This document shows, piece after piece, positions 9,094 to 29,674 of a DNA stretch of 39,382 nt. Each line of letters begins with the position of its first letter. Within the stretch, counting starts at the first letter, position 1. Both the position numbers and the translations under genes were made by a program. Where the stretch lies: IMG/VR virus record IMGVR_UViG_2923296884_000001, one strand, 5' to 3'. Origin of the DNA: a virus (taxonomy: Duplodnaviria > Heunggongvirae > Uroviricota > Caudoviricetes). Under the pieces are notes generated by a model, which was given only the letters and a program-made list of their open reading frames with translations, had not been told where the DNA came from and did not search any database.

Positions 9094-9123
9094 AAAACCG
9101 CTAATGGTCAGATTAGCGGTTTT
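9094..9123. terminator. palindromic hairpin between convergent U and invertase genes (bidirectional terminator candidate)
   Basis: AAAACCGCTAAT-ggtcag-ATTAGCGGTTTT perfect 12-bp inverted repeat, A-run on one side and T-run on the other; overlaps the invertase stop codon. Confidence 0.5.
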
Positions 9124-9712
9124 CATTTTCCTGAGTCTGCCTGGTTGTTTCTTCAGCCTGTATATCGCCTACAGGGTGATAACGATAAATCGTCGATATG
9201 CCGATGTCGTAAATGATCGCCAGTTGTTTCCTGTCATGACCGTTTTTAATCAGCCTCGCTATTTGCTCGTGTTGTTCTTTTGTCAACTTCGGGCGACGTC
9301 CGCCAATGCGTCCTTGTGCGCGTGCTGCTGCCAGCCCGGCCAGTGTACGCTCTACAATTAATTCACGTTCCATTTCGGCTAAAGCCCCCATGACGTGAAA
9401 AAAGAAACGCCCCATGGGTGTTGATGTGTCAATGCTGTCCGTCAGACTACGGAAATTAACACCTTTTTCCCGCAATTCCTCAATAAGCGTGATCAGGTGT
9501 TTCATACTTCTGCCCAGTCTGTCCAGCTTCCAGACAACCAGCGTATCTCCTTCTGATAGCGTTCTGAGCAGTTTTTTCAATCCCGGTCTGGTTGATTTCG
9601 TTCCGCTGATTTTATCTTCAAAAATCAGTTCACATCCTGCGCAGTTCAGTGCATTGCGTTGTAAATCCGTGTTCTGGTCGTTTGTTGACACACGAATATA
9701 GCCAATTTGCAT
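9113..9712 (-). CDS. serine-recombinase DNA invertase (Hin/Gin/Cin/Pin family)
   Basis: Translation from the ATG at 9712, MQIGYIRVSTNDQNTDLQRNAL..., carries the catalytic serine (GYIRVSTNDQ) and a C-terminal HTH; lies right next to an inverted-repeat-flanked tail-fibre segment. Confidence 0.93.
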   Translation of the reverse strand: MQIGYIRVSTNDQNTDLQRNALNCAGCELIFEDKISGTKSTRPGLKKLLRTLSEGDTLVVWKLDRLGRSMKHLITLIEELREKGVNFRSLTDSIDTSTPMGRFFFHVMGALAEMERELIVERTLAGLAAARAQGRIGGRRPKLTKEQHEQIARLIKNGHDRKQLAIIYDIGISTIYRYHPVGDIQAEETTRQTQENENR

Positions 9713-9726
9713 AAAAAACATCCTCT

Positions 9727-10245
9727 TTGTTTCGTGAAAAATACAGAGTTGGTATAGGTAGGGATAAAAACGAAAACGTTGGTTTAGGAGAAGGCTCGGC
9801 GCTACCCGTTGGTGTGCCTGTTCCGTGGCCCACTGCCACACCGCCAGCAGGCTGGTTACAGTGCAACGGAGCTACGTTCACCAAAGAACAATATCCTGTT
9901 CTGGCCAGAGTCTACCCGACCCTCCGTCTTCCCGATTTGCGCGGTGAGTTTATCCGTGGATGGGACGGTGGTCGCAAGGTTGATACCGGGCGTACGGTAC
10001 TTTCATTTCAGGAAGGGACTATCGTATCCGGTTTTGATGATAATAATACCGGAGATATCAGTTCGCTCGGCTCTACACAATACGGATTTGGTGACGCTTT
10101 AACCTCTAATCAACTGGGGGTCATAAATGGCAAAAAGTGGATATTTGATGCATCCTCTAAAGGTGCACAAAGATATGACTGGTGGGCTTATGTATCAGCT
10201 CGCCCCCGCAATATCGCATTTAACTATATCGTGAGGGCGGCGTGA
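9727..10245 (+). CDS. alternative tail-fibre C-terminal cassette (Hv'), promoterless in the current orientation
   Basis: Opens inside the left inverted repeat with no plausible start of its own (ORF-track start is a TTG); ends ...RPRNIAFNYIVRAA, matching the conserved P2-type fibre C-terminus. Confidence 0.8.
   Translation: MFREKYRVGIGRDKNENVGLGEGSALPVGVPVPWPTATPPAGWLQCNGATFTKEQYPVLARVYPTLRLPDLRGEFIRGWDGGRKVDTGRTVLSFQEGTIVSGFDDNNTGDISSLGSTQYGFGDALTSNQLGVINGKKWIFDASSKGAQRYDWWAYVSARPRNIAFNYIVRAA
9765..9790. other. gix/hix-like crossover site (left)
   Basis: Reverse complement TTCTCCTAAACCAACGTTTTCGTTTT shares its first 17 nt with the right-hand site; resembles the 26-bp gix architecture with AAACC half-sites. 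Confidence 0.5.
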
Positions 10246-10251
10246 TACCGT

Positions 10252-10866
10252 TCAACTGGCAAGTGCCAGTGGTGCTTCCGGCCAGATGATTTCAGGTGCC
10301 GTGCTGATATCCAGTGCGTTCAGCTCGTCGATATAATCCAGCACGGCGTTCAGTTTTGCCGTTTCTTCTGGTGTCAGACTGCGACCAGCACGCAGTTTGA
10401 GGTTGATAAGATCGACGGACGCCATCGCCTGTTTCACCCGTTGCTGGCGTTGCTGTCTGGCAACCTCCAGTTCTGCGGTTCGCTGCCGTTCAGTATCGGT
10501 TACCCACGCCTCACCGTTCCAGGTATCCCATGGCGTGGCTGGCTGTTTTGTGGTGGTGTCCGCCGGGTAATCACCCGGTTGGGTAATCAGAACGGGGTTA
10601 CCGTTCTCCGTGCTGTATACCGTCTCGCCGCGGTGATCAGGCACATGCTCCCACCCGTTCAGCGTGGCAGTCCGGCAAACCACGTAACCCGAAATTGCCT
10701 CCGGCGGTGCATCGGCGCACGAATGTGCCGGAGTACCCACCCCAAGGGCGAGATACTCCACAGAGGATGAGGTGTATTCCCGGGTTTCCTCGTCATAGTG
10801 ATATACAGTGATATCGCCCGCTACAGTGGCGATACCGTTTTCATCCAGAACTGCAGTGTTACTCAT
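10252..10866 (-). CDS. tail fibre assembly chaperone (Tfa / P2 gpG-like)
   Basis: 204-aa ORF translationally coupled (TAATG) to the upstream fibre C-terminal ORF; variable N-terminal half and conserved C-terminal half typical of Tfa proteins. Confidence 0.85.
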   Translation of the reverse strand: MSNTAVLDENGIATVAGDITVYHYDEETREYTSSSVEYLALGVGTPAHSCADAPPEAISGYVVCRTATLNGWEHVPDHRGETVYSTENGNPVLITQPGDYPADTTTKQPATPWDTWNGEAWVTDTERQRTAELEVARQQRQQRVKQAMASVDLINLKLRAGRSLTPEETAKLNAVLDYIDELNALDISTAPEIIWPEAPLALAS

Positions 10867-11108
10867 TAAACTGCCCTCACAATGTAATTAAGTGCAATGC
10901 TACGGGGTCTGACAGTGATACCCTTCGCATACCCGCTTCTGATAGAGGTCAGAATAGTAGCCTGCATACCATTGTCTGACATTGCTATGACAGGATCGCT
11001 GAATGTTGTCCCGTCCGGCATTTTAAAGCTGCCCTCACGAAGGTCTGTAATGGAATCTTCATTGTTGAATCCCATGCCGACTATCCCGAGGTTCCCGTAG
11101 TGTCCTGG
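10866..11108 (-). pseudogene. distal part of the currently fused fibre C-terminus, in a different frame from H (frameshifted end)
   Basis: This frame is open from 11108 and ends ...RPRSIALNYIVRAV, the conserved fibre terminus, while the H frame stops at 11081; the two frames overlap at 11081-11108. Confidence 0.5.
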
Positions 11109-12688
11109 TTATAATAATCCAGCATTGCTGTTCTTAACAGCGTTGCCCCTTGTGCGGACAGCAACTTACGTCCTGTATCAACTTTGCGCCCGTCGTCCCA
11201 TCCACGGATAAACTCACCGCGTAAATCGGGAAGACGGAGGGTCGGGTAGGCTCTGGCCAGAACAGGATATTGTTCTTTTGTAAAGGCGCGCCCGTCGCAC
11301 TTTAACCAGCCTGCTGGCGGTGTGGCGGTGGGCCACGGAACAGGCACACCAACGGGTAGCGCCGAGCCTTCTCCTAAACCAAGGTAATTGAGGACATCTT
11401 TTATACTGCCCTTAGCGATAATAGCGCGACCAATAGCTGTAAGGGTTGCCAGCGCTGCGCGGTCTGCTCCGGTAAAATAAGGCAACCGATCTGCTGCAGT
11501 GGCAAGTCCTGCCAGAGCAGTGAGCGTGGCATCTGCCGGTTGTTTTCCGTTTGCCAGATCGTATGCAGCCTTGACCGCTTTCGGTGTGGCGGCCAGTATT
11601 TCAGACGTGCTGTTGGTGGCGCTACTGAGTTGAACAAGGCCTTTTCGTGCCGTAGTCGCATCCTGAGCGGTATATTTCCCGTTAGCCAGGTCATATGCAG
11701 CCTTAACCGCTTTCGGTGTTGCGGCCAGCGTTTCAGAGGTGCTGTTGGTGGCGCTACTGAGTTGAACAAGGCCTTTTCGTGCCGTAGTCGCATCCTGAGC
11801 GGTATATTTCCCGTTAGCCAGGTCATATGCAGCCTTAACCGCTTTCGGTGTTGCGGCCAGCGTTTCAGAGGTGCTGTTGGTGGCGCTACTGAGTTGAACA
11901 AGGCCTTTTCGTGCCGTAGTCGCATCCTGAGCGGTATATTTCCCGTTAGCCAGGTCATATGCAGCCTTAACCGCTTTCGGTGTGGCGGCCAGCGTTTCAG
12001 AGGTGCTGTTGGTGGCGCTACTGAGTTGAACAAGGCCTTTTCGTGCCGTAGTCGCATCCTGAGCGGTATATTTCCCGTTAGCCAGGTCATATGCATCCTT
12101 AACCGCTTTCGGTGTTGCGGCCAGCGTTTCAGAGGTGCTGTTGGTGGCGCTGCTAAGTTGAACAAAGCCTTTTGCGGTCAGCGAGGCGTCCGGGTGACGT
12201 CGTGACTGCTCGTGCTCTGATATTTTATCATCCACATATTTGCGGGTTGCCAGAACCACAGACGGGTCGATTTTCAGCGTGATGGCTTCGGTGTTCGTGA
12301 CAACCAGAATCATGCGGATAGTCTGGGTGCGTCCACTGCCTTCCTGCAACTGCGGTTTGTACGTTTCCGGGCAGTTTGCCACCGCAATGAGTACACCTTT
12401 ATCATCATAAAGACCAATCTCACGGATCCAGAATCCTCCCTCGCTTTCAGGGATGATTTGCTCCGCAATAATCTGGCTCTGATTGTTAGGGTCAACACTC
12501 AGAAGATTCAGCGGTGCAATGCGTTTCTGGTTAATCAGTTTTGTTTGTGCAGGGTCTGGTGTTGGTAACACACCATTTGCATCACCAACGGCCATTCGCG
12601 TCAGATTCAGCTTACTGCCGAGCATCGTCGCGTTAGCCAGTCGTGCCGCGCCCTGATTAGTCAGAATGGCGTAGTATTTCACTGTCAT
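11081..12688 (-). CDS. H: tail fibre protein H (constant part plus currently fused variable end)
   Basis: 535-aa ORF with a P2 gpH-like N-terminus, five tandem 44-aa repeats, and a C-terminal region that enters the right inverted repeat. Confidence 0.9.
   Translation of the reverse strand: MTVKYYAILTNQGAARLANATMLGSKLNLTRMAVGDANGVLPTPDPAQTKLINQKRIAPLNLLSVDPNNQSQIIAEQIIPESEGGFWIREIGLYDDKGVLIAVANCPETYKPQLQEGSGRTQTIRMILVVTNTEAITLKIDPSVVLATRKYVDDKISEHEQSRRHPDASLTAKGFVQLSSATNSTSETLAATPKAVKDAYDLANGKYTAQDATTARKGLVQLSSATNSTSETLAATPKAVKAAYDLANGKYTAQDATTARKGLVQLSSATNSTSETLAATPKAVKAAYDLANGKYTAQDATTARKGLVQLSSATNSTSETLAATPKAVKAAYDLANGKYTAQDATTARKGLVQLSSATNSTSEILAATPKAVKAAYDLANGKQPADATLTALAGLATAADRLPYFTGADRAALATLTAIGRAIIAKGSIKDVLNYLGLGEGSALPVGVPVPWPTATPPAGWLKCDGRAFTKEQYPVLARAYPTLRLPDLRGEFIRGWDDGRKVDTGRKLLSAQGATLLRTAMLDYYNQDTTGTSG
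11369..11394. other. gix/hix-like crossover site (right)
   Basis: TTCTCCTAAACCAAGGTAATTGAGGA: imperfect dyad of 12-bp half-sites around a central AA, at the outer edge of the right inverted repeat. Confidence 0.5.
11510..12170 (-). repeat. five tandem copies of a 132-bp (44-aa) coding repeat inside H
   Basis: Near-identical 132-bp units at about 11640, 11772, 11904 and 12036 plus a more diverged flanking copy; encode LVQLSSATNSTSETLAATPKAVKAAYDLANGKYTAQDATTARKG. Confidence 0.85.
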
Positions 12689-15114: not shown

Positions 15115-15746
15115 CGTACAGCCTCCGCAATCCGGCCCAGCACCGTGTTATAAATCAGGCGCTCATCTGCCTGGCTGATACCCAACAGCTCACGTACCGG
15201 GTAATCGGTGAAAATGCCCGGCGCAACCTGATCGCGCTCACCGAACTGATGAACGCGTGCAATACGTGCGGCCACGCCGCTGTAACCTACCGTCACACCG
15301 GAGGCATCTGCACGGGCTTTCAGGTAGCGGGCGGTGCGCAGTTTTACGAACATGGGGACGCGCTTTGTGCTGTCCTGGTTGATGCGCCGGGTGCGTATTT
15401 CCAGAAAACGGTCGATGTCATCCCGGTAAAACGTGCGGATATTGTTTTTATCCTCATCCCACCCGGTGATGGTTCGCCCGTATTTCCCCGTGTCGTGATG
15501 CCAGTTTTTCAGCGTGCGTGCTTCGTTATTCCAGATAAAGCGAATGCGTTCCTGTATCCGGGTTACGCGGCGTCTGCGTGGTGTCCACGCGGTCCCGTCC
15601 GGCGCTTTCTGTGACCGGATACGCGCCTGCTGGGCGCGGCGTAAATCCTGTGCCAGCTTTCTGGCGATGTTATTGATGGCCTGCTGATTCAGGCTGTCGC
15701 GGATGGCCTCAAAGGTTTCATCCACGCGGGTGAATGCCTTATCCAT
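15111..15746 (-). CDS. S: tail completion / virion morphogenesis protein S-like
   Basis: ORF in the P2 gpS position between R and V; longer (about 211 aa) than P2 gpS. Confidence 0.75.
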   Translation of the reverse strand: MDKAFTRVDETFEAIRDSLNQQAINNIARKLAQDLRRAQQARIRSQKAPDGTAWTPRRRRVTRIQERIRFIWNNEARTLKNWHHDTGKYGRTITGWDEDKNNIRTFYRDDIDRFLEIRTRRINQDSTKRVPMFVKLRTARYLKARADASGVTVGYSGVAARIARVHQFGERDQVAPGIFTDYPVRELLGISQADERLIYNTVLGRIAEAVR

Positions 15747-16206
15747 CGCTTTCACCCCACGTCACATCCTGGAATACATGCGACCAGTCGCCTTCGGAAG
15801 ATGGCAGGCGGGGTTTTGGCTCCGGCAGGTGTTCTGCCTGCGGTGTGCCCTGACTGTTGCGCGTGATGCGAACGCGTTCCCGCAGGGGGAGCGTAAACAG
15901 GAGATCGGCGCTGTCATCGTCATTGATAACGGCGGAGAATTTGATGTCCTGATTACGCTCAGGGTTGAGCAACAACTGTGGCTGATTTTCGGATAACCAC
16001 GCCAGCAGCGGCAGCGTGAGGTCGTCCAGCTCTCCGGCGTAATCCATGACAAACATCACCATCTGATAGCGGTAAACAAACGAGGGCGTTTCCCCGGTCG
16101 TTTCAATGTTGCCGCTCTCCACGAAAATGGTGAATTTCTCGGGATTAGCCTGGCACCACCGACACCCATGAAGCATGGACTCTCGCAGACTGTTTGTCTT
16201 AAACAT
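15739..16206 (-). CDS. R: tail completion protein R
   Basis: 155-aa ORF, same length and position as P2 gpR. Confidence 0.85.
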   Translation of the reverse strand: MFKTNSLRESMLHGCRWCQANPEKFTIFVESGNIETTGETPSFVYRYQMVMFVMDYAGELDDLTLPLLAWLSENQPQLLLNPERNQDIKFSAVINDDDSADLLFTLPLRERVRITRNSQGTPQAEHLPEPKPRLPSSEGDWSHVFQDVTWGESDG

Positions 16207-16229
16207 CTGTTTTGCTCTCCTGCTCTTCC

Positions 16230-18107
16230 TTATGCTGCGGGATTATTGATTTCCAGCACCAGGCTGCCGATATCGACGCCATACGTTGCATTTTTGGTAA
16301 TATCCGTCAGCGTCAGTGCATTCAGCCCCAGTGTCAGACTGTCTTTTATGACCTGGAATGCCGGGCCAACCAGTCCATTCAGTTTCGGAGTAACCGTGGC
16401 ACTGCCGGCGGTGAACACCAGCTCCAGCGTCTGCCAGTCGTTACTGTAATTCCCGAACTCGCCCAACTTTGTGTTTCCGGCTTTCTTGTGATGCATCAGA
16501 TTCAGTTTGCCGTCTGTGGTCTGGGTGAAGAACGACATCAGGAACGGGTTACCAGTCCCGGTCATCGCCACGACGTCAGGTAACGCTACATCGGTATACA
16601 GATAAATTCCCAGACCGAACTGGTTGTTGGTCAGTGCGCCTGACAGTCGAAACTTACAGCTCAGTCTGCCACCCCGTGTCAGCAGGGAGACTGCGTCATC
16701 CACCGGGCGCGTCAGGGACCAGGCTTTATTGCTCTGCTTGGCGATCTTAAATACACCATCTGACAACTGAATTCCGCCATTCTTAATGCTCCAGCCCTGC
16801 GCAGCAGCATCTCCGGCTGTCGGCAACAGGGAGATTGTGCGTACGGATGCATCTTCAGACGGCCCCGATGGCGTGTCGCCGCCGGGCGAGGGTTTGATTT
16901 CCGGTGCCTTACCACTGATGAAGGCTGAGGTGCGCCCGGCTGCGTTCAGAATAGCGGTTGCCATACGATCCGGAATAATGCTCCTGCGCGCCCATGAACT
17001 GAAATGTGTCGGGCGGTTTGATGATACCCAATTACCATTACTACGGGATTGCGCGCCGTAATAACCTGCATCAGCAATATCCGGGTCTTCTGCCGGTAAG
17101 TTGGTGGGCGTGTTGTTGCCGTTACCGTCGGTCATGAACGGCACAAAGAAAACGTTGTCGCTCTCCCTGTTTTTGTACGCGCCGTAGACGGAGTCATACT
17201 GTGTGCCGTATGTGTTTTTCCAGTAATACGTCGTGTCGCCACAAATCCACGGTACAACTGCAGCACTGCCGCCATGGCACTGCGCGTTAAATCCGGAAAG
17301 GTCAGTACGGAACTGCTTCAGCATGGCCGTGAACAGGTCCGGTTGCTGTGCGTAGGTGGCAGCGCTCATGTCAAATTCGCCCTGCATCCAGCACACCGCC
17401 AGCAACACATTTTTCGGGTTCTTCTGTAATGCCGCTTTGGTGCGTGCGATCAGGTCCTGATATAACGGTTTACCCACACCCCAGCGTGCCGAATCCTGGC
17501 TGGCCCCCGTGTCCGCACTGAATGTCCCCTCCGCGCCCTGGGTGAATGCCGAACCACCACGACAGCATGGTACCAGCAGGATCCCCGCGTTATTCGGGAT
17601 ATACGGAAGCAGTTTTTTGGCAATATGTAAGCCCTGGCCGACACAGCCGTACTGCCCTTTGCTCAGGTCTGCCTTCGGATGATTCAGTGCGCTCATATCC
17701 TGAACATCATGCAGGCAGTGGTCTGCCGGAATGATGTCGTTAAATGCGCATGCTTTACCACCGGGAGTCACTGTGTTGCGACGGGCCAGTTGCTTAATGC
17801 GTGGGTGGGGCGCATCGTAAGAATCCGGCAGCGGCATTCCCTCACCATATGACATGGCATTGGATTGACCAGCAAGTACCACCACGTAATACCACTCCGG
17901 CACGCTGCCGTGCTGGGGGGAATCAGGTGAGATGTCTGTAGTGCCATCGGCCACCATTGCCTGCATTAGATACCACGGGGTGCCGGGTTCGTAGGCAACC
18001 CGCGTCTCCCCCTGAAGATGCCACCCTTTCGCAAGATGTTCATTCACCTTTTGAGTCAGTTCAGCCTGTGTCATGGCTGTAATCAGTGCAAAGTTCTTAC
18101 TGGTCAT
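16230..18107 (-). CDS. SASA-domain carbohydrate esterase (sialate O-acetylesterase-like, NanS-p-like), 625 aa
   Basis: Contains VVVLAGQSNAMSYGEG (GQSN motif) and WMQGEFD, typical of the SASA esterase family, plus a ~300-aa C-terminal domain; start overlaps the o-spanin stop (ATGA). Confidence 0.75.
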   Translation of the reverse strand: MTSKNFALITAMTQAELTQKVNEHLAKGWHLQGETRVAYEPGTPWYLMQAMVADGTTDISPDSPQHGSVPEWYYVVVLAGQSNAMSYGEGMPLPDSYDAPHPRIKQLARRNTVTPGGKACAFNDIIPADHCLHDVQDMSALNHPKADLSKGQYGCVGQGLHIAKKLLPYIPNNAGILLVPCCRGGSAFTQGAEGTFSADTGASQDSARWGVGKPLYQDLIARTKAALQKNPKNVLLAVCWMQGEFDMSAATYAQQPDLFTAMLKQFRTDLSGFNAQCHGGSAAVVPWICGDTTYYWKNTYGTQYDSVYGAYKNRESDNVFFVPFMTDGNGNNTPTNLPAEDPDIADAGYYGAQSRSNGNWVSSNRPTHFSSWARRSIIPDRMATAILNAAGRTSAFISGKAPEIKPSPGGDTPSGPSEDASVRTISLLPTAGDAAAQGWSIKNGGIQLSDGVFKIAKQSNKAWSLTRPVDDAVSLLTRGGRLSCKFRLSGALTNNQFGLGIYLYTDVALPDVVAMTGTGNPFLMSFFTQTTDGKLNLMHHKKAGNTKLGEFGNYSNDWQTLELVFTAGSATVTPKLNGLVGPAFQVIKDSLTLGLNALTLTDITKNATYGVDIGSLVLEINNPAA

Positions 18108-18415
18108 TGTGTTACTCCCGTCTGGTGTGTCAGTTCGGCTATTCTCTTATCCAGTTCAGCAATGGCCCGTTTATCCGCGTTACAGGTTTCCAGTGCATCC
18201 AGAAGGCGGTCGCCCCATATTCCGAGGTTTCCCCATGTGGGTGGGTCAGGGAAGGGGGGAGGCGTTACCGGCATGGTCAGCGTCTGCGGTATAAGCCGGA
18301 CTGACGGCGCTGGCCCTGGCGCGTTCTGCGTGCCTGCGCAACCTGTCAGTAAAACGAGCGTCAGGCAAAGCGTGGGCGCATTCATCTTTTGCAATATCGT
18401 TGCGTAGCTGTTCAC
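18104..18415 (-). CDS. o-spanin (Rz1/LysC-like outer-membrane lipoprotein)
   Basis: Signal peptide with lipobox LLTGC, proline-rich mature part (PVTPPPFPDPPTW); ORF lies in another frame overlapping the 3' half of the i-spanin gene; start at 18415 or 18385. Confidence 0.65.
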   Translation of the reverse strand: MNSYATILQKMNAPTLCLTLVLLTGCAGTQNAPGPAPSVRLIPQTLTMPVTPPPFPDPPTWGNLGIWGDRLLDALETCNADKRAIAELDKRIAELTHQTGVTQ

Positions 18416-18641
18416 GTCTTACCTCTCCGTCCTGATTGCGTTGCTGATTTTCCGCGCGGAGCTGAGCCAGCACCTGCTGCATATCCTGTACCCCGGCGCT
18501 GATGATATTCAGTGTGTCGACGGTACTTTTCAGGGTGCTGGCCTGCGCTTCGTTTCTGGCGTTCTCCCGGCCCAGCGACCACGACAGACGCATGGATGTA
18601 ATCAGAAGGAAAGCGACGCCAAGCGTGGGCCAGAGCTTCAT
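18246..18641 (-). CDS. i-spanin (Rz/LysB-like)
   Basis: From the ATG at 18641 (MKLWPTLGVAFLLITS...): N-terminal TM helix then coiled-coil; ATGA overlap with the endolysin stop. Confidence 0.7.
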   Translation of the reverse strand: MKLWPTLGVAFLLITSMRLSWSLGRENARNEAQASTLKSTVDTLNIISAGVQDMQQVLAQLRAENQQRNQDGEVRREQLRNDIAKDECAHALPDARFTDRLRRHAERARASAVSPAYTADADHAGNASPLP

Positions 18642-19030
18642 GCCGGATAGGCTCCGTGTGGTAACTGAAAATGCGGTCCGTCTTTCAGGGTCTTCCAGTC
18701 GCCGCCCCATTCCACCGGAATATTCAGTTCCTGGCTGGCCTGTCTGAATGCTGCTGCGATTTTTTCGTACAGCGGCCATTCCCATGACACCTGGTTGCCG
18801 ACATAAGCCACAACATCCACGGCATGCCCTGTGAGATGGCGACTGTTCATGGTCTGGCTCTTGCCTGTGGTCACGAGCTGCTTCTGACGATAACGACTGC
18901 GCAATCCTTCGGTGATACCAAAATCCACTTCCGAGATTTCCAGCGCCCGTCGGGTCACTTTCACCAGATCAGGATTTACACCCTGCAAATTCTTTTCGCT
19001 CCGGCTGCTGAATTTAAATGTGTTGCTCAT
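18638..19030 (-). CDS. endolysin, peptidase M15 (VanY/L-Ala-D-Glu endopeptidase-like)
   Basis: 130-aa ORF with SRHLTGHAVD and DGPHFQL zinc-peptidase motifs; sits between holin and spanins. Confidence 0.8.
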   Translation of the reverse strand: MSNTFKFSSRSEKNLQGVNPDLVKVTRRALEISEVDFGITEGLRSRYRQKQLVTTGKSQTMNSRHLTGHAVDVVAYVGNQVSWEWPLYEKIAAAFRQASQELNIPVEWGGDWKTLKDGPHFQLPHGAYPA

Positions 19031-19350
19031 TCGTTCCTCTCCTTCACCCTGCGATCAAATATTGCAATAACCTTGTCGCGTGCTTTCTCTGCGCCCATAA
19101 AACCGATTGAGGCACCAAAAAACGTCACTGCATCCTCAGGGATCCCGAAGAAGCGCAGCGACCCGGCCACGGCCATGGCAAGAACGCCGCACGCCAGCGA
19201 TCCCGTTACGGTCTGAACCAGTGTTCGTCCGTCATAAAGACTCATCAGCGCGGAAATGCTGACCGCCGCGCCTACTGCATACACCGTTGGCAGGTGGTCA
19301 AAGAGCCACGCAATAACCTGCTCTGTGATCCCTGTTTGAATGGTGCTCAC
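19027..19350 (-). CDS. putative holin
   Basis: About 107-aa product from the GTG at 19350 (SD GGGGGAG upstream) with several hydrophobic helices and a charged C-terminus; lies between X and the endolysin. Confidence 0.55.
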   Translation of the reverse strand: MSTIQTGITEQVIAWLFDHLPTVYAVGAAVSISALMSLYDGRTLVQTVTGSLACGVLAMAVAGSLRFFGIPEDAVTFFGASIGFMGAEKARDKVIAIFDRRVKERNE

Positions 19351-19352
19351 TG

Positions 19353-19559
19353 CTACTCCCCCCACAACTGAATCATTTCTCGTTTCTTCTTCTCCGGCTC
19401 CGGCATCTCCACTTCCTGCCCGGCGTCCAGAAATACCTGCTGACAGAGTCCGGGGTTGGCATCCAGCACCTTTTCGGTGACGCCCTGTGTCGTGCCGTAG
19501 TACCGGAAACAGAGCGAATCCACGGTGTCGCCTTCCAGTGCCTTCACTTTCATCAGCAC
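19353..19559 (-). CDS. X: tail protein X
   Basis: 68-aa ORF with P2 gpX similarity (...FRYYGTT.GV.E.VL.ANPGL...). Confidence 0.85.
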   Translation of the reverse strand: MLMKVKALEGDTVDSLCFRYYGTTQGVTEKVLDANPGLCQQVFLDAGQEVEMPEPEKKKREMIQLWGE

Positions 19560-20056
19560 AGCTCCGCAAACATTCGCGGTCGTCCCAGAATGTCAGAGAT
19601 GGCCCAGCTCACATCGCGCCACAAATCCGATGTCTGTATATCCAGTGCGTCCGCCCGGCGATCGCCCTTGTCCGTTGTGTCCGCATCGCGGTAACGCTCC
19701 AGAATCAGGGCACGTGTGGCGGTATAAACAGCATTGCGCCAGTGCCAGAGATTGACGCTTTCTCCGTTAATTACGGGTGCCGGAACATCGGCCAGCGTCT
19801 GATGGCCAGCCGCCTGCTGTTCCTGCTGCCACGCTTCCAGCTCGCGGGTAACGTGTGCTATGGCCCCGGTGGCGGTATGCAGCAGGCGGGAGGTGGTCAC
19901 GCGGCCCGGCAGTCGTACCGCCAGACGCAGCTCACGCAGCACAATATCCGGCCAGAATGCACCCGCTGAAATACGGGTATCACCATCATCGGTATCGGTG
20001 ATGTCGTCCTCTGCGGGGCCGGGGTTGGTTCTGGCAACCATACTCATGGGGTTCAC
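19553..20056 (-). CDS. L: head completion protein L
   Basis: 167-aa ORF in the P2 gpL position and size. Confidence 0.88.
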   Translation of the reverse strand: MNPMSMVARTNPGPAEDDITDTDDGDTRISAGAFWPDIVLRELRLAVRLPGRVTTSRLLHTATGAIAHVTRELEAWQQEQQAAGHQTLADVPAPVINGESVNLWHWRNAVYTATRALILERYRDADTTDKGDRRADALDIQTSDLWRDVSWAISDILGRPRMFAELC

Positions 20057-20148
20057 TCCTGAAAAAATCGGGCGGTGGGTGTGCGGTGTAAACGGTCACG
20101 GAGTCAAACCGGAACACCGCGCACGCCGCCCGCTGACGGGGTCAGTCG

Positions 20149-20949
20149 TTAACCGCGCTTTGCCTTCTGCGTCGCGGTGGTTTTTCGTGTTGCAGGCTTC
20201 CGCGTTGTCTTTTTACTTTTGCTGCTTTCGTCCTGCGCCTGCGGTGTGCTGGCATCTTCTGGTGCGGCTCCGGAATCAGCTTTTTTCAGGGCGCGGGAAA
20301 GGGTTGCAATCTCGCGTTTCACACCTGCGTTCGGGTTCAGATGCATCGCTTCGCGCAGCAGCTTCAGTGATGAGGCCATGCTGTCCGCATCGCTCAGGCC
20401 ACGGCGGGCAAAGGCGCACGCCTTGCATAATTTGGCGCGCACTTCGTCCGGCATATCCTGGTTGGCGACAATTTCCCAAAGTGTGTCCAGTGGTTCGATA
20501 AAGGCGGATAAATCCGCGTCGGCATCCGTCCCGGCCTGCGTCAGTACCGGGTTGCAGATTTCTTCGGTCAGTACCGTGGCGGCAGTACGTCCAAAGTTAT
20601 CCGGCATGATGAGGTTGTGACGGACCACATATGCACCAATACGCAGCGCCAGCGGAAGATCGCCGCAGTCAATCGCCCACACCATCAGCGTGGCAATCAC
20701 TTCGTCCTGCTGCCCGCCGTCAGCCTCCAGCGTTCCCTCAATCCAGCCGGAAAAGTCCGGCAACAACTCTTTTTTGATGGCGGCTTTCGAGCTTCTGGCC
20801 TGTACGCCCTTAAGCCGGGCCTGTGCCAGACGCAGACGATACAGCACCTCTTCATGCGCGGTACGCGCGGCGTGGTCCACACCTTCATTCGCCCGGCCTG
20901 CGCGCTGTGCCATCACGTTCTGCCAGTGTTGTTGTGCAGGAGTAATCAT
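20149..20949 (-). CDS. M: terminase small (endonuclease) subunit M
   Basis: 266-aa ORF with P2 gpM similarity and a basic C-terminal tail. Confidence 0.88.
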   Translation of the reverse strand: MITPAQQHWQNVMAQRAGRANEGVDHAARTAHEEVLYRLRLAQARLKGVQARSSKAAIKKELLPDFSGWIEGTLEADGGQQDEVIATLMVWAIDCGDLPLALRIGAYVVRHNLIMPDNFGRTAATVLTEEICNPVLTQAGTDADADLSAFIEPLDTLWEIVANQDMPDEVRAKLCKACAFARRGLSDADSMASSLKLLREAMHLNPNAGVKREIATLSRALKKADSGAAPEDASTPQAQDESSKSKKTTRKPATRKTTATQKAKRG

Positions 20950-24813: not shown

Positions 24814-25859
24814 TGAGCAGAAAAAATAAAAAAGTGCGCATGAGTTCACGCATTGATCTCGCTGATGCGCTCAGGAAAGAATCATCGCTCAGTGCATTCA
24901 CATTTGATGGTCCTTATCGCCTGACCGGGCATGACCTGCTGGACAATATGTACTGTGCTGATAACGGGCGGTGGTATGAAACCCCGGTGGACTGGTACGG
25001 TCTGGCAAGAGCAGCCCGGCAAACGTCCTGGCATCAGTCTGCGCTTTACTTTAAGCGCAATGTATTACTCGGTTGCTACATCCCGCACCCGCTGCTTTCC
25101 CGGCAGGATTTCTCGGCGCTGGCGCTGGACTGGTTTGTGTTCGGTAACGCATTCCTTGAGCTTCGAAGCAATATGCTCGGCGAACCGCTTAAATTACGGC
25201 ACGCCCTGGCGAAATATATGCGACGCGGAAGCGATCTTGAATCATGGTGGTATGTGCAGGATGGCAAGGACGCGTTTCAGTTTCGTCCTGGCAAAGTGTG
25301 CCACCTGATGAATCCGGATATTAACCAGGAAATCTACGGCATGCCGGAATATCTTGGCGCATTACTCTCGGCCAGCCTTTCTCATTCGGCGGACATGTTC
25401 AGAAAACTGTACTACGACAACGGATCCCACGCCGGGTGCATCATCTACATCGGTGCAGCGCAGGTAAACCGCGAAAGCATGGACTCCCTGAAAGAAACGC
25501 TACAGGGGGCACGTGGTGGTGGTGCGTTTAAAAACGTGCTCATTCATGCGCCCAACGGGGGCAAAGAGGGGGTGCAAATTTTGCCGTTCCAGCAGATCAC
25601 CGCAAAAGATGAATTCATGAATGTTAAGGCGGCATCCCGTGATGATGTGCTGGCTGCGCACCGCGTTCCGCCGCAACTGATGGGGGCGATGCCGGGCGAA
25701 AAAAGTGCGTTTGGCGATGTGGAGAAGGCAGCGCGGGTTTACGCAATTAACGAGCTGATGCCCGTCATGGAGGCTATGAAGCACATCAATGACTGGCTTG
25801 GCGAAGAGGTGATCCGTTTTAACTCTTATGCTCTTCTTGATGAAAAAACAGCCCCGTGA
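24813..25859 (+). CDS. Q: portal protein Q
   Basis: 348-aa ORF with P2 gpQ similarity; start overlaps the P stop (TGATGA). Confidence 0.93.
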   Translation: MSRKNKKVRMSSRIDLADALRKESSLSAFTFDGPYRLTGHDLLDNMYCADNGRWYETPVDWYGLARAARQTSWHQSALYFKRNVLLGCYIPHPLLSRQDFSALALDWFVFGNAFLELRSNMLGEPLKLRHALAKYMRRGSDLESWWYVQDGKDAFQFRPGKVCHLMNPDINQEIYGMPEYLGALLSASLSHSADMFRKLYYDNGSHAGCIIYIGAAQVNRESMDSLKETLQGARGGGAFKNVLIHAPNGGKEGVQILPFQQITAKDEFMNVKAASRDDVLAAHRVPPQLMGAMPGEKSAFGDVEKAARVYAINELMPVMEAMKHINDWLGEEVIRFNSYALLDEKTAP

Positions 25860-25876
25860 TGGGGCTGTCCTTTTTA
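25848..25876. terminator. bidirectional rho-independent terminator between convergent Q and the 174-aa gene
   Basis: ACAGCCCC-gtgat-GGGGCTGT stem-loop with an A-run upstream and T-run downstream. Confidence 0.65.
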
Positions 25877-26398
25877 CCAGAGTTGAACCATTTTCTGGGT
25901 GCCGTCAGGCTTGAGATTATCAATTTCAGAGAGAACGTAATATTGAATGGCTTCACAAACGGTGGTGTAGGGTGAATTACCTTCTTTAAGTGGCACGATA
26001 TTATTATTAACGCGAACCTGTATTTCATCGTTATACATTGCGATCGAAACAGGCGTGTGCACGAACGCGACTTCGCCAGGTGTGTCGTCAACCACCGTTT
26101 CAATACTAAAAGTCAGTTTTCGCTCATCATTGCTGCCCCGTGCTTTGGGGGTAGCGGCAGGGATCTGGGATAAAGGCATTCTGCGAAATCCTTCGGCTGC
26201 TTCCAGTCCGCATGAAACGTAATGCTGGCGATTACCGTCGCTATCTGTCCAGGTCTGTGATGGCAGCTCCAGCGAGATTTCATAAGCATCAACAATGCCC
26301 TGGGCAAGGCGTACAAGCGGGGTCAGATCTTCATTGCGGCGAAAGCTCTCCTTTACCTGCTCCCGTTTTTCTCTTAACTGCTTGTAATTAATGACCAT
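25874..26398 (-). CDS. hypothetical protein (about 174 aa), orphan gene between Q and the early-operon terminator
   Basis: ORF 25874..26437 with start refined to the ATG about 26398 (MVINYKQLREK...) preceded by a GGAGG SD; lower GC than neighbours; no family recognised. Confidence 0.6.
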   Translation of the reverse strand: MVINYKQLREKREQVKESFRRNEDLTPLVRLAQGIVDAYEISLELPSQTWTDSDGNRQHYVSCGLEAAEGFRRMPLSQIPAATPKARGSNDERKLTFSIETVVDDTPGEVAFVHTPVSIAMYNDEIQVRVNNNIVPLKEGNSPYTTVCEAIQYYVLSEIDNLKPDGTQKMVQLW

Positions 26399-26495
26399 AA
26401 GACAGCCTCCATTGATTTCTTTGCTCGTATTTTGCACTTATGAAGTATGGTCGGCAAGGTGCCGTATCGCTGACGCGCTTCGCTTGTCTGCTGCT

Positions 26496-26930: not shown

Positions 26931-26956
26931 AAGCGCCCCTGAGGCGCTTTAGTGTT
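26931..26956. terminator. terminator of the leftward early/accessory operon (bidirectional stem-loop)
   Basis: AAGCGCC-cctga-GGCGCTT flanked by A/T runs, about 30 bp after the last minus-strand gene; preceded by three TTGTGCA direct repeats (26899-26930). Confidence 0.6.
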
Positions 26957-26984
26957 TTATAGGTTGTGTATATTTGCTGGGTCC

Positions 26985-27248
26985 TTATCCTGCTGTGCTT
27001 TCAACTGATGAGGGGAACAAAATCTTTTCATCAAACCCTGCATTCATATCATGGACAGCAACACACCAATCCATTGACGAACGATTATCAAGAGCCTCCA
27101 TGATTTCATCCATGCGGCGTAGGTCATACAGGTAAATGCTTTTATCGCCAATGGTGTAAAAACCAATTTTTTTCGGTGATGGACAGCGATCAAGAACGTC
27201 CTGTAATTCGCTCAACCATGCTTGTTCTTTTTTTGTCAAAGTTGCCAT
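26985..27248 (-). CDS. hypothetical protein (87 aa)
   Basis: Start ATG at 27248 with strong SD GAAAGGAG; packed TGAtATG against the upstream gene. Confidence 0.6.
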   Translation of the reverse strand: MATLTKKEQAWLSELQDVLDRCPSPKKIGFYTIGDKSIYLYDLRRMDEIMEALDNRSSMDWCVAVHDMNAGFDEKILFPSSVESTAG

Positions 27249-27249
27249 A

Positions 27250-27690
27250 TCACTCTCCTTTCCCATGAAGCATAGCGGCGCGGCAGGCGTTCCATATTTC
27301 GGCAGCAATATAGCGCTCGCTATCGGTTAATTTGTACGTGGAAACATAGCCAGAGAGCATTTCTACGTTTTCCGGAGTTGCTTCTTCCGGCACTACCGGC
27401 GCTGGCAAGGCAGCGTGATAGTAGAGTGGCATAGTTTTGTACAGTGGTTCGCCAGGACTTCCGTCAGCCTGATTCCATTCTTCAACCCAGGCATCAACAA
27501 CCGCTTTGCTGGTTGATACATGTTCTTCTGAATCTACATTTTGTCCTGATATACAGAACATAACTGCCTCTGCTTCCAGCGATGCCAGAGCAATTTCATA
27601 AGCCCGACGCTCAATATTGTCTCGGACGTCCAGGCTGCCTATGCGCTCTTTGATTTCTTTAATCAGTTCTTTGTCGGTAAAAGTGGTCAT
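27250..27690 (-). CDS. hypothetical acidic protein (146 aa)
   Basis: Start ATG at 27690 (MTTFTDKEL...) with SD AAAGGAG. Confidence 0.6.
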   Translation of the reverse strand: MTTFTDKELIKEIKERIGSLDVRDNIERRAYEIALASLEAEAVMFCISGQNVDSEEHVSTSKAVVDAWVEEWNQADGSPGEPLYKTMPLYYHAALPAPVVPEEATPENVEMLSGYVSTYKLTDSERYIAAEIWNACRAAMLHGKGE

Positions 27691-27691
27691 A

Positions 27692-28006
27692 TCAATCTCC
27701 TTTGGTACCAATGTTTACAGCCTGGTAAGCCTCTTTGAGCACCCAGTCAACAGCGTCTTTCCATGCTCCGGTTTCGACTGGCGGATTCTCACGCTTTACC
27801 TGTTCATAGAAACGCACCGCTCTAACCAGTCCATCTGACGGTTTTGCCTGTAGTGCAGCCTGAGCTATGCGGTATGCCTGGAGCATACGGGCGTCGTTGA
27901 TATCCATTCCGAACGGAATTTCTGATGATTGTGACTCTGCATCTTCAAGCCTGGCAATTTCTTTACGTAAGAAGTATTTCAACTCTTGTTTCTGTTTTCT
28001 GTTCAT
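27692..28006 (-). CDS. hypothetical protein (104 aa)
   Basis: ATG at 28006 overlaps the upstream stop (ATGA). Confidence 0.6.
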
Positions 28007-28398: not shown

Positions 28399-28710
28399 TT
28401 ATTCGGGAAATAACGCCCGGATATTTCCGGCCATCTGACTGGTTATCTGTGCGGCTGATACTGGCTGTGACGCGGGGCGTTCTGTCCTGGTTTGTGTCAT
28501 TGATAACGCCTCATCATCAGCCCATGCAGCCAGTCGGTAAGCCTCTGCCGGATTCATTTTCAGTAGTGCCAGCCCGGCCAGAAAAGCCACGCGTTGACCA
28601 CTTTTGCGGGCTTCTGGTGTAAGGCTGTCCAGCCAGGCGCATGCTTCGCCTTCGTTCTTGACGGCGGCGGGCTTCAGATAGAAACTTATCCGTCTGGTTG
28701 GTGTCGTCAT
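28399..28710 (-). CDS. parR: ParR-like partition adaptor (103 aa)
   Basis: ATG at 28710 four nt after the parM stop, SD AAGGAG; N-terminus ISFYLKPAAVKN...VAFLAGLALL resembles plasmid R1 ParR (IAFKLNPDVN...AALTAGLALY). Confidence 0.7.
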   Translation of the reverse strand: MTTPTRRISFYLKPAAVKNEGEACAWLDSLTPEARKSGQRVAFLAGLALLKMNPAEAYRLAAWADDEALSMTQTRTERPASQPVSAAQITSQMAGNIRALFPE

Positions 28711-28714
28711 TGGT

Positions 28715-29674
28715 TTACTCCTTGTCCATTGCGTACAGCCCATTAACCAGAGCAAACTGTGGCACCCCGTCCGCGATGAAAGTCGCATTAACTCCGCAGG
28801 CTTCGCGGATAGCGGGTGCCACAATCTCTGCCCCGCCACCGACAACCATCACCCGCCCGTAACCCGAAAAACCCGCCAGCGCGCGGATCACGCGTTGTTT
28901 CAGTGTTTCTTCCTTTTCACGAATAACCGCCATCAGGCTGGCGTAATGCGCGTCATTGTGGATGTGCTGGCGCAGCCAGGCTTCATCATGGCGATGTTCG
29001 ATAATGGTATTGGCGATGTGGTGACTGGTACGCATACCGTTAGTGGCCATCACCGACAGTACGGCATCGGCCATCAGGGAAACGCCTACGTGTGGATCGC
29101 AAAACACCTGGCTGATACCTGCCAGTTGTCCCTGAACCTTTGCCACATCCAGCGTGGTTCCGCCTAAATCCACAATCAGCAGGGATTCAAACGGACTCAT
29201 GTCAGCCAGTGCCTTAAAGCCAGCCGGAATGGATTCAGGCATAACCCGCACGTTACGGATAGTGAATGCTTCGCCGTTCTGGTACTCCACCGGGCGCATA
29301 ACGTTCGCTTTTTTGCGGTTGATGTTGGCCATGTCCGGCTGTGCGTTTGTGTCGAAATACTCGCTCAGTGGCAGGGTGACAACCACATCCACCTCCTGTG
29401 GCGTGATGCCTGATTTGACCAGCGCGTGATGAATGGCGATTACATTCACATCGCTGTACTGGTATTGCGTGTCGGTCGTCTGGACAAAGCGATCGCTAAC
29501 CGGATCAAAACCATAGCGCACGCCATCAAGCATGTAGTTCGCGGGCTGCATGCCACCGAACGGCGCAGACCATTCCGACTTGAAGCTGTTCGGGCTGATG
29601 GCGTTGCGGCGTTCGCCATTCTCAGTCCATGCCAGCTTGATGTTGGTGGAGCCGTCGTCGATACAAATTTTCAT
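28715..29674 (-). CDS. parM: ParM/StbA actin-like segregation ATPase
   Basis: 319 aa; MKICIDDGSTNIKLAW... with full-length similarity to plasmid R1 ParM (phosphate-1 motif DDGSTNIKL, VMPESIPAG, LIVDLGGTTLD, VVGGGAE). Confidence 0.9.
   Translation of the reverse strand: MKICIDDGSTNIKLAWTENGERRNAISPNSFKSEWSAPFGGMQPANYMLDGVRYGFDPVSDRFVQTTDTQYQYSDVNVIAIHHALVKSGITPQEVDVVVTLPLSEYFDTNAQPDMANINRKKANVMRPVEYQNGEAFTIRNVRVMPESIPAGFKALADMSPFESLLIVDLGGTTLDVAKVQGQLAGISQVFCDPHVGVSLMADAVLSVMATNGMRTSHHIANTIIEHRHDEAWLRQHIHNDAHYASLMAVIREKEETLKQRVIRALAGFSGYGRVMVVGGGAEIVAPAIREACGVNATFIADGVPQFALVNGLYAMDKE

What the first reader, a model, noticed from the sequence alone, without database searches (positions are those of the whole stretch)
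18104..19350. Lysis cassette differs from P2: M15 zinc-peptidase endolysin with overlapping spanin pair
Instead of a P2 gpK lysozyme the endolysin has SRHLTGHAVD and DGPHF motifs of M15 peptidases. The i-spanin and o-spanin genes overlap in different frames, and the o-spanin is coupled to the esterase gene. The holin appears to start at a GTG.
Basis: partly seen in the sequence, partly recalled or inferred. Interest (0 to 1): 0.3.

Follow-up and report, generated by a model that had tools for sequence, protein, structure and literature searches.

The report
Known P88-type phage lysis cassette
This is the ordinary, already annotated cell-bursting gene set (holin, zinc-peptidase endolysin, two overlapping spanin genes) of a P88-like, P2-family prophage that sits in roughly one in five complete E. 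coli genomes, here followed by a passenger sialic-acid esterase gene.

Summary
On the minus strand, 18104-19350 holds four tightly packed genes. They are a 107-aa lambda-S-family holin that starts at GTG 19350, a 130-aa soluble M15 (LAS) zinc peptidase, an Rz-like i-spanin, and a LysC-family lipoprotein o-spanin. The o-spanin starts in the +1 frame inside the i-spanin and runs 142 nt past it. Its stop overlaps (ATGA) the start of a 625-aa NanS-p-type sialate O-acetylesterase. The endolysin is 61% identical to Serratia ChiX, a proven L-Ala-D-Glu endopeptidase, and keeps all three zinc ligands and the catalytic Asp. Compared with P2, the holin, endolysin and i-spanin belong to other families and lysA is absent. 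Only LysC and the overlapped spanin layout are shared, so the overlap is not itself a difference from P2.

None of this is new. The window is 100% identical to a prophage of E. coli U15A and 95-97% identical to the inducible phage P88 (Xuanwuvirus). RefSeq already names all four genes. The cassette occurs in 1006 of 5426 complete E. coli genomes. Phages of the same family swap endolysin types within otherwise similar cassettes.

The one mildly interesting feature is the esterase passenger gene, with a P88-lineage-specific DUF1737 N-terminus.

The parts
19027..19350 (-). Class I, lambda-S-family holin, 107 aa, GTG start
   Evidence: Pfam PF05106, 4.4e-19. phrog_126, 1.4e-34. Same length as lambda S, with 23% identity and E 4e-5. 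Three hydrophobic segments at about residues 12-38, 43-68 and 73-88, then a charged C-terminal tail. RefSeq CDS WP_001342221.1 has the same coordinates.
19356..19363 (-). Shine-Dalgarno GGGGGGAG, 5 nt upstream of the holin GTG
   Evidence: Read directly from the sequence. The SEN5 homologue has GGGGGAGG before an ATG at the aligned start.
18638..19030 (-). Soluble M15 (LAS) zinc-peptidase endolysin, 130 aa, predicted L-alanyl-D-glutamate endopeptidase
   Evidence: Pfam PF13539, 4e-12. phrog_465, 3.7e-76. PDB hits: ChiX 5opz 7e-48 with 61% identity, 8q2g, and T5 endolysin 2mxz 6e-22. No hydrophobic segment, so no signal or SAR domain.
18815..18844 (-). SRHLTGHAVD motif: zinc ligands His65 and Asp72 (H-x6-D)
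   Evidence: Aligns to ChiX His68 and Asp75 (ligands as given in PMC5778951). Coordinates.
18668..18682 (-). DGPHF motif: catalytic Asp117 and zinc ligand His120
   Evidence: Aligns to ChiX Asp120, whose D120A variant is inactive, and to His123. Coordinates.
18246..18641 (-). i-spanin (Rz-like), 131 aa, with an N-terminal transmembrane segment and a helical periplasmic domain
   Evidence: phrog_214, 1.5e-39. Weak similarity to lambda Rz, E 0.002. Hydrophobic N-terminus and a single Cys88. Pfam DUF2570 falls below its cutoff. It is not in TIGR03495 LysB.
18104..18415 (-). o-spanin (LysC family lipoprotein), +1 frame. The start is GTG 18415 or ATG 18385; RefSeq calls CTG 18364.
   Evidence: Pfam PF23793 LysC, 1.2e-13. 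31% identity to P2 LysC, E 5e-7. The mature N-terminus is proline-rich. SD GGAGAGG lies 6 nt before GTG 18415.
18338..18349 (-). Lipobox LTGC of the o-spanin
   Evidence: Match to the pattern [LVI][ASTVI][GAS]C.
16230..18107 (-). NanS-p-type sialate 9-O-acetylesterase (DUF1737 + SASA + DUF6645). Its start overlaps the o-spanin stop (ATGA).
   Evidence: Pfam hits. 82% identity to the Stx1-phage NanS-p/YjhS. PDB 3pt5 NanS 4e-122 and 6yp6 NanS-p. No hydrophobic N-terminus.
16165..18159 (-). Block with no counterpart in phage P88: the last 18 codons of lysC, the esterase gene and the first 14 codons of gpR
   Evidence: blastn of the window against P88.
19353..19553 (-). gpX (tail protein X), the gene immediately upstream. 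It places the cassette at the P2 Y-K-lys position in the late operon.
   Evidence: Pfam PF05489, 9e-21. RefSeq annotation.

Best explanation
This is the lysis cassette of a P88-like (Xuanwuvirus, Peduoviridae) prophage. It sits in the late head/tail operon between gpX and gpR, the same position as Y-K-lysA-lysB-lysC in P2.

Proposed mechanism, inferred from the families:
1. The lambda-S-type class I holin accumulates in the inner membrane and triggers to form large holes.
2. The holes release the signal-less cytoplasmic M15 endolysin into the periplasm. There it cuts the L-Ala-D-Glu bond of peptidoglycan stem peptides, using a Zn site (His65, Asp72, His120) and catalytic Asp117.
3. The i-spanin (anchored in the inner membrane) and the LysC-type lipoprotein o-spanin (in the outer membrane) then disrupt the outer membrane.

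The genes are linked by 4-base ATGA stop/start overlaps. The esterase is a passenger gene in the same transcript. It has no signal peptide, so it would be set free by lysis.

Shown here: gene structure, family membership, conservation of the catalytic residues, synteny and distribution. Inferred: enzymatic specificity, holin hole size, translational coupling, timing, and esterase release.
For: - Gene anatomy and junctions.
- Family hits.
- Endolysin: 61% identical to ChiX, with His68/Asp75/His123/Asp120/Arg47 all conserved. The ChiX paper PMC5778951 shows L-Ala-D-Glu endopeptidase activity and an inactive D120A variant. The T5 L-alanyl-D-glutamate peptidase 2mxz matches at 6e-22.
- Endolysin hydropathy: no hydrophobic segment. 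The holin has three.
- Identity of the window: 100% identical to an E. coli U15A prophage in which RefSeq names the holin, the M15 metallopeptidase, a DUF2570 protein and LysC.
- Relation to P88: 95-97% identical and collinear. P88 is mitomycin-inducible and forms plaques (PMC5285337).
- Distribution: the cassette is present in 1006 of 5426 complete E. coli genomes.
- Transcript continuity: terminator-like hits on the minus strand do not exceed chance and lie inside ORFs. The essential tail genes R and S lie downstream.
Against: - There is no experiment on these exact proteins.
- The holin scores just under the NCBIfam lambda-holin equivalog cutoff (51.2 against 55.05 bits).
- The i-spanin reaches only a sub-threshold Pfam DUF2570 score.
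- The o-spanin start is unresolved among 18415, 18385 and RefSeq's 18364.
- No antiholin was found: there is no lysA homologue and no charged dual-start motif. How lysis timing is set is therefore unknown.
Confidence: 0.9

Rival explanations
1. The cassette has been taken over as a holin/endopeptidase protein-release system, like Serratia ChiWXYZ. Its main job would be to export the adjacent signal-less esterase rather than to release virions.
For: - The endolysin is 61% identical to ChiX.
- ChiW is also a holin-3 (lambda S) family protein with a single start, and chiWXYZ also carries two spanin genes (PMC4259817).
- The esterase lacks a signal peptide and its start overlaps the lysC stop.
Against: - The cassette sits inside a complete prophage that is collinear with P88 and has intact head, tail, terminase, replication and integrase genes.
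- Esterase-free versions of the same cassette are the majority: about 1006 genomes carry the cassette and about 370 carry it with the esterase.
- P88 itself makes plaques.
- Esterase release on phage lysis needs no special secretion function.
Confidence: 0.04
2. This is a pinholin plus SAR-endolysin system. The holin would only depolarise the membrane, and the endolysin would be exported by Sec and activated on release.
For: Pinholin/SAR systems are common in E. coli lambdoid prophages, including Stx phages that carry nanS-p (PMC10462455).
Against: - The endolysin has no N-terminal hydrophobic or SAR segment; no 17-residue window reaches a Kyte-Doolittle mean above 1.3.
- The holin belongs to the S105-type family (PF05106), not the phage 21 family. 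It is 107 aa long with three hydrophobic segments.
Confidence: 0.02
3. The M15 protein is a VanY-like D-Ala-D-Ala carboxypeptidase or a cell-wall remodelling enzyme, not the lytic enzyme, and lysis depends on another gene.
For: The description line of Pfam PF13539 reads 'D-alanyl-D-alanine carboxypeptidase'.
Against: - The closest solved and assayed relatives are L-Ala-D-Glu endopeptidases and phage endolysins: ChiX, 8q2g, T5 2mxz and Ply500 2vo9.
- It occupies the endolysin slot between holin and spanins.
- In the relatives Shae_phiSM and SEN5 a GH108 enzyme or a Phage_lysozyme enzyme occupies that slot.
- No other muralytic gene is annotated in the prophage.
Confidence: 0.03

Closest known systems
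Lysis module of Escherichia phage P88 and other Xuanwuvirus members (Peduoviridae)
   Same: Same four genes in the same order and position, 95-97% DNA identity, and the same holin coordinates. This is the family the window belongs to.
   Different: P88 lacks the esterase. The last 18 codons of lysC and the first 14 codons of gpR differ, and in P88 lysC overlaps gpR directly. The P88 RefSeq record does not annotate the o-spanin.
Phage P2 lysis genes Y, K, lysA, lysB, lysC
   Same: Same position in the late operon after gpX. Same overlapped +1-frame spanin geometry: 146 nt overlap and 145 nt extension in P2, against 140-170 and 142 nt here. LysC is homologous (PF23793, phrog_456; 31% identity, E 5e-7).
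   Different: P2 holin Y is PF04550/phrog_175. K is a lambda-R-type enzyme (55% identical to lambda R). LysB is TIGR03495/phrog_89. None of the three resembles the window's proteins, and lysA has no counterpart here.
Serratia marcescens ChiWXYZ (holin-like ChiW, L-Ala-D-Glu endopeptidase ChiX, spanin-like ChiY/ChiZ)
   Same: Same combination of protein families. ChiX is the closest solved structure, with 61% identity and conserved metal ligands and catalytic Asp. ChiW is in the holin-3 family and has a single start.
   Different: ChiWXYZ is a chromosomal operon next to chitinase genes and is used for secretion. Its spanin-like genes come with the lipoprotein gene (chiY) before the membrane-anchored one (chiZ), the reverse of the order here (PMC4259817). 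The window's cassette is inside an intact prophage late operon.
Phage lambda S-R-Rz-Rz1
   Same: The holin family and length match (107 aa, PF05106). Both have a soluble endolysin that depends on the holin, and a two-component spanin with the o-spanin in the +1 frame.
   Different: Lambda R and the M15 peptidase here belong to unrelated families; from prior knowledge, lambda R is a transglycosylase. Rz1 is fully embedded in Rz, whereas here the genes are overlapped. Lambda S has the Met1-Lys2-Met3 dual start, which is absent here.
Phage T5 endolysin (EndoT5, PDB 2mxz) and related L-alanyl-D-glutamate peptidase endolysins
   Same: Same small single-domain M15 fold family and the same predicted bond specificity. 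The family is found in 1309 phage records.
   Different: A more distant sequence relative (E 6e-22) from lytic phages with different holins.
NanS-p esterases of Stx-converting lambdoid phages
   Same: The esterase next to the cassette is 82% identical overall, and about 90% identical from residue 69 to the end. It has the same three-domain layout.
   Different: It lies downstream of the spanins in a P2-family prophage, not between stx and the holin of a lambdoid phage. Its DUF1737 N-terminus is diverged and is found only in P88-like phages within the phage collection.

Membership tests
Peptidase M15 / LAS L-Ala-D-Glu endopeptidase endolysins (ChiX, EndoT5 type) | Profile match above the curated threshold | tested here: met
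   PF13539, 47 bits against a cutoff of 25. phrog_465, 3.7e-76.
Peptidase M15 / LAS L-Ala-D-Glu endopeptidase endolysins (ChiX, EndoT5 type) | Zn ligands H-x6-D plus a distal His, and a catalytic acid two residues before that His | tested here: met
   His65, Asp72, His120 and Asp117 align without gaps to ChiX His68, Asp75, His123 and Asp120. Arg44 aligns to Arg47.
Peptidase M15 / LAS L-Ala-D-Glu endopeptidase endolysins (ChiX, EndoT5 type) | Cleavage of the L-Ala-D-Glu bond; zinc dependence | not testable with these tools
   Inferred from 61% identity to the assayed enzyme ChiX.
Canonical (holin-dependent) endolysin | No signal peptide or SAR domain | tested here: met
   No 17-residue window has a Kyte-Doolittle mean above 1.3.
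Lambda S holin family (class I, Phage_holin_3_1) | Profile match | tested here: met
   PF05106, 69.2 bits against a cutoff of 23.8. The stricter NCBIfam equivalog TIGR01594 is missed: 51.2 bits against 55.05.
Lambda S holin family (class I, Phage_holin_3_1) | Three transmembrane segments and a charged C-terminal tail | tested here: met
   Hydropathy peaks at about residues 12-38, 43-68 and 73-88. The tail reads EKARDKVIAIFDRRVKERNE. The topology itself was not tested.
Lambda S holin family (class I, Phage_holin_3_1) | Dual-start holin/antiholin motif (Met-Lys-Met type) | tested here: not met
   A single GTG start with a Shine-Dalgarno sequence. An in-frame GTG at 19365 would add the uncharged peptide MGGVA, and the SEN5 homologue has no such start.
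Two-component spanin, overlapped architecture (P2 LysB/LysC type) | i-spanin with an N-terminal transmembrane segment; o-spanin with a lipobox; o-spanin starts inside the i-spanin gene in another frame and extends beyond it | tested here: met
   The architecture definitions come from PMC6139136.
Two-component spanin, overlapped architecture (P2 LysB/LysC type) | o-spanin in the LysC family | tested here: met
   PF23793, 51.2 bits against a cutoff of 27. BLASTP to P2 LysC, E 5e-7.
Two-component spanin, overlapped architecture (P2 LysB/LysC type) | i-spanin in the LysB family (TIGR03495) | tested here: not met
   P2 LysB hits TIGR03495 at 1.2e-51, while the window's i-spanin does not hit it. There is no BLASTP similarity either.
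P2-type lysis module (Y, K, lysA) | Y-family holin, lambda-R-type endolysin K, and the lysA timing gene | tested here: not met
   There is no ORF between endolysin and i-spanin, because the two genes overlap by ATGA.
Holin/endopeptidase secretion system (ChiWXYZ-like) | A chromosomal operon outside a prophage, dedicated to cargo secretion | tested here: not met
   The cassette is embedded in a complete P88-like prophage.
NanS-p sialate O-acetylesterase (neighbouring gene) | DUF1737 + SASA catalytic domain + C-terminal lectin-like domain | tested here: met
   PF08410, PF03629 and PF20350 are all above their cutoffs. PDB matches 3pt5 and 6yp6. The GQSN serine motif is conserved in the alignment.

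The most novel reading that the evidence does not exclude
The esterase attached to the end of the cassette may be more than a passive passenger. Its N-terminal DUF1737 domain differs from the Stx-phage version and occurs only in P88-like phages within the phage collection. A 2026 preprint reports that the DUF1737 domain of phi24B gp84 binds capsid hexons. By analogy, the N-terminus here could be a capsid-binding module matched to the P2-type head. The enzyme would then be made with the lysis proteins, released by them, and carried on virions into mucus. This would be a new decoration protein for P2-family phages. Nothing here tests capsid binding. P2-type T=7 heads also lack the facet-centre hexon that gp84 uses.
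Probability: 0.12. Interest if true: 0.45.

Novelty: already known. Interest (0 to 1): 0.1.

Why it matters
It matters little as a discovery. The cassette is a routine example of module shuffling in P2-family phages: a lambda-type holin, a T5/ChiX-type peptidase, a non-LysB i-spanin and a P2-type LysC. It is already annotated in RefSeq and present in about 18% of complete E. coli genomes.

It has three practical uses:
1. It is a clean example of endolysin swapping within one genus: M15 in P88, GH108 in Shae_phiSM, and a Phage_lysozyme-family enzyme in the related SEN5.
2. It is a reminder that o-spanin calls are unreliable. The gene is missing in the P88 record, and RefSeq gives it a doubtful CTG start here.
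3. It shows that the ChiX secretion enzyme has very close, abundant prophage relatives in E. coli.

Tried and rejected
- **Defective prophage.** The FI-to-U tail block is on the opposite strand and RefSeq calls a short gpD, which suggested an inversion or a broken prophage. This is rejected. P88, a viable phage, has the same arrangement, and gpD reads through intact, 96.7% identical over 366 aa.
- **Dual-start holin.** There is a second in-frame GTG at 19365, but it adds no charged residue, has a poor Shine-Dalgarno sequence and is absent in SEN5.
- **Choosing the o-spanin start by conservation.** Both GTG 18415 and ATG 18385 are invariant in P88 and Shae_phiSM, so the comparison is uninformative.
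- **P2-type late-promoter dyads.** A search for TGT-N12-ACA gave 6 hits against 9 expected, and none lay in the O/P intergenic region.
- **Promoter and terminator scan of 15500-20200.** Nothing above shuffle expectation.
- **Base composition.** No anomaly across the cassette or the esterase.
- **Plus-strand ORFs of 69-130 aa across the region.** No Pfam hit at E of 1 or below.
- **Literature.** Searches for P88 plus endolysin/holin, and for a P2-like prophage plus sialate O-acetylesterase, found nothing in the held library. The P88 paper does not describe the lysis genes individually.
- **Large protein-database searches.** These were not spent because the answer did not depend on them.
Full report
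**What is there**

All relevant genes run on the minus strand. Reading 5' to 3' on that strand:
- gpL (19553-20047)
- gpX (19353-19553)
- a 107-aa ORF starting at GTG 19350 (19027-19350)
- a 130-aa ORF (18638-19030)
- a 131-aa ORF (18246-18641)
- a +1-frame ORF that starts inside the 131-aa ORF and ends at 18104
- a 625-aa ORF (16230-18107)
- gpR and gpS

The packing is tight:
- gpL and gpX share one base.
- The GTG lies 2 nt after the gpX stop and 5 nt after GGGGGGAG.
- Holin/endolysin, endolysin/i-spanin and o-spanin/esterase each share ATGA.

SRHLTGHAVD is residues 63-72 (18815-18844). DGPHF is residues 117-121 (18668-18682).

**Family assignments**

| Gene | Evidence |
|---|---|
| Holin | Pfam Phage_holin_3_1 (lambda S family) 4.4e-19; phrog_126 1.4e-34. 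Same length as lambda S, aligns at 23% identity, E 4e-5. Three hydrophobic segments and a charged tail. |
| Endolysin | Pfam Peptidase_M15_4 4e-12, above threshold; phrog_465 3.7e-76. |
| i-spanin | phrog_214 'Rz-like spanin' 1.5e-39; hydrophobic N-terminus. Pfam DUF2570 falls below its cutoff. |
| o-spanin | Pfam 'Rz1-like lysis system protein LysC' 1.2e-13; lipobox LTGC; proline-rich mature N-terminus. |

The endolysin's closest solved relatives are:
- Serratia ChiX (5opz, 7e-48), 61% identical over 126 ungapped residues
- two other M15C / L-alanyl-D-glutamate endopeptidases (23ri, 8q2g)
- the T5 endolysin (2mxz, 6e-22)
- Listeria phage Ply500 (2vo9)

The ChiX paper gives the zinc ligands as His68, Asp75 and His123, the catalytic residue as Asp120 (D120A is inactive), and the substrate-binding residue as Arg47. 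It also shows L-Ala-D-Glu endopeptidase activity (PMC5778951). The corresponding residues here are His65, Asp72, His120, Asp117 and Arg44, and all are conserved. The protein has no hydrophobic segment. It is therefore a soluble, holin-dependent endolysin, not a SAR type.

Plus-strand ORFs across the region have no family hit.

**Start codons**

The GTG holin start has four supports:
- its Shine-Dalgarno sequence
- the same call in RefSeq
- Pfam profile coverage from residue 7
- the 57%-identical holin of Salmonella phage SEN5, which starts with ATG after GGGGGAGG at the aligned first column

The o-spanin start is less certain. GTG 18415 has a good Shine-Dalgarno sequence (GGAGAGG, 6 nt spacer). 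It gives a 25-residue signal peptide with a lysine. ATG 18385 has no clear Shine-Dalgarno sequence and gives 15 residues with no basic residue. RefSeq's CTG 18364 would leave only 8 residues before the lipobox Cys, which is implausibly short. P2 LysC has 20. Both GTG and ATG are invariant in P88 and Shae_phiSM, so conservation does not decide the question.

**Where it comes from**

The window is 100% identical to a prophage next to serS in the urinary E. coli strains U15A and U12A. It is collinear with the mitomycin-inducible, plaque-forming phage P88 (Xuanwuvirus, Peduoviridae) at 92-97% identity over most of its length (PMC5285337).

RefSeq already annotates 'phage holin family protein', 'M15 family metallopeptidase', 'DUF2570 domain-containing protein' and 'Rz1-like lysis system protein LysC' at these coordinates.

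The 1247-bp cassette is found at 80% coverage or more in 1006 of 5426 complete E. coli genomes. The M15 endolysin family occurs in 1309 phage records.

**Comparison with P2 and others**

P2's Y, K, lysA, lysB and lysC were fetched and compared with the window's genes.

| P2 gene | P2 family | Relation to the window |
|---|---|---|
| Y (holin) | PF04550, phrog_175 | No similarity |
| K (endolysin) | 55% identical to lambda R | No similarity to the M15 protein |
| lysA | phrog_162 | No counterpart |
| lysB | TIGR03495, phrog_89 | Unrelated to the i-spanin here |
| lysC | PF23793, phrog_456 | Homologous: 31% identity, E 5e-7 |

The overlapped +1-frame geometry is almost the same as in P2. P2 has 146 nt of overlap and a 145 nt extension. 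The window has 140-170 nt and 142 nt. P2 is the textbook 'overlapped' spanin case (PMC6139136). That paper also notes that o-spanins are often left unannotated, as in the P88 record, or given wrong starts.

It understates the holin and i-spanin differences, and the overlap itself is a P2-like trait.

Other Peduoviridae show the same slot filled differently:
- Shae_phiSM has the same holin and i-spanin with a GH108 endolysin.
- SEN5 has the related holin with a Phage_lysozyme endolysin and a DUF2514 spanin.

The same set of families also makes up Serratia chiWXYZ: a holin-3 holin with a single start, an M15 L-Ala-D-Glu endopeptidase, and two spanins (PMC4259817).

**Mechanism**

The best-supported reading is a canonical three-step lysis:
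1. The S-type holin triggers.
2. The cytoplasmic zinc peptidase is released and cuts the stem peptide at L-Ala-D-Glu.
3. The spanin complex disrupts the outer membrane.

The cassette is expressed as part of the late operon, because the essential tail genes R and S lie downstream. No terminator-like site above chance separates the genes. Gene structure, family membership and residue conservation are shown. Bond specificity, hole size, coupling and timing are inferred. No antiholin was identified.

The rivals are each unlikely, for the reasons given in their entries:
- a domesticated ChiWXYZ-like release system
- a pinholin/SAR system
- a VanY-like non-lytic carboxypeptidase

**The esterase**

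Homology to P88 breaks between 16165 and 18159. This block replaces the last 18 codons of lysC, adds the esterase gene, and replaces the first 14 codons of gpR.

The protein has DUF1737, SASA and DUF6645 domains. It matches NanS (3pt5, 4e-122) and the NanS-p C-terminal domain (6yp6). It is 82% identical to the Stx1-phage NanS-p. The divergence is concentrated in the first 68 residues or so. That N-terminal segment finds only three P88-like phages in the phage collection.

About 370 complete E. coli genomes carry the cassette together with the esterase. A 2026 preprint reports that the DUF1737 domain of phi24B gp84 is a capsid-decoration domain. Whether the variant here binds P2-type heads is untested.

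**Verdict**

The feature is already known and annotated, and its interest is low.

Noticed in passing
window 16165-18159 (esterase gene 16230-18107, minus strand): A NanS-p-type sialate O-acetylesterase is inserted between lysC and gpR of a P2-family prophage. The insertion brings its own lysC 3' end and gpR 5' end relative to P88. Residues from about 69 to 625 are about 90% identical to the Stx1-phage NanS-p. The DUF1737 N-terminus is diverged and occurs only in three P88-like phages in the phage collection. A 2026 preprint shows that DUF1737 of phi24B gp84 is a capsid-binding decoration domain.
   Followed up: partly
window 18364, 18385 and 18415 (minus strand): RefSeq starts LysC at CTG 18364, which leaves only 8 residues before the lipobox Cys. 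ATG 18385 or GTG 18415 is more plausible, and GTG 18415 has a strong Shine-Dalgarno sequence. The P88 RefSeq record does not annotate the o-spanin at all.
   Followed up: partly
window 19363-19365 (minus strand): A second in-frame GTG lies five codons upstream of the holin GTG and would add MGGVA. It carries no charge, has a weak Shine-Dalgarno sequence and is absent in the SEN5 homologue, so it is probably not a lambda-like dual start.
   Followed up: partly
window 2233-3343 (minus strand): RefSeq calls gpD as a short 266-aa protein (2233-3033) plus a pseudogene fragment. The frame actually reads through for about 369 aa and is 96.7% identical to P88 gpD, so the gene looks intact.
   Followed up: yes
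window 33305-33392 and 33428-33502 (minus strand): Rfam matches above gathering score to C4 antisense RNA (78.5 bits) and the isrK Hfq-binding RNA (72.4 bits). Both lie under an 'ash family protein' pseudogene call in the early region. The pair looks like a P1/P7-type c4/antirepressor module inside a P2-family prophage.
   Followed up: no
window 9112-12688: The tail-fibre region holds a DNA invertase (9112-9711). It has only one tail-fibre assembly gene and a partial alternative fibre end (9777-10909, plus strand), which converge on the fibre gene (10916-12688, minus strand). P88 has two complete fibre-end/assembly sets. This region is also where DNA identity to P88 is lowest.
   Followed up: no
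window 1598-1738 and 28399-29674: A Hok/Gef toxin gene lies at the prophage end next to serS. A ParM/partition gene pair lies in the early region. Both are also present in P88.
   Followed up: no
window 25834-26470, 26938-27696 and 34771-35512: These are further short blocks without P88 homology. They include hypothetical genes next to the portal gene and in the early region, and are likely variable cargo positions.
   Followed up: no
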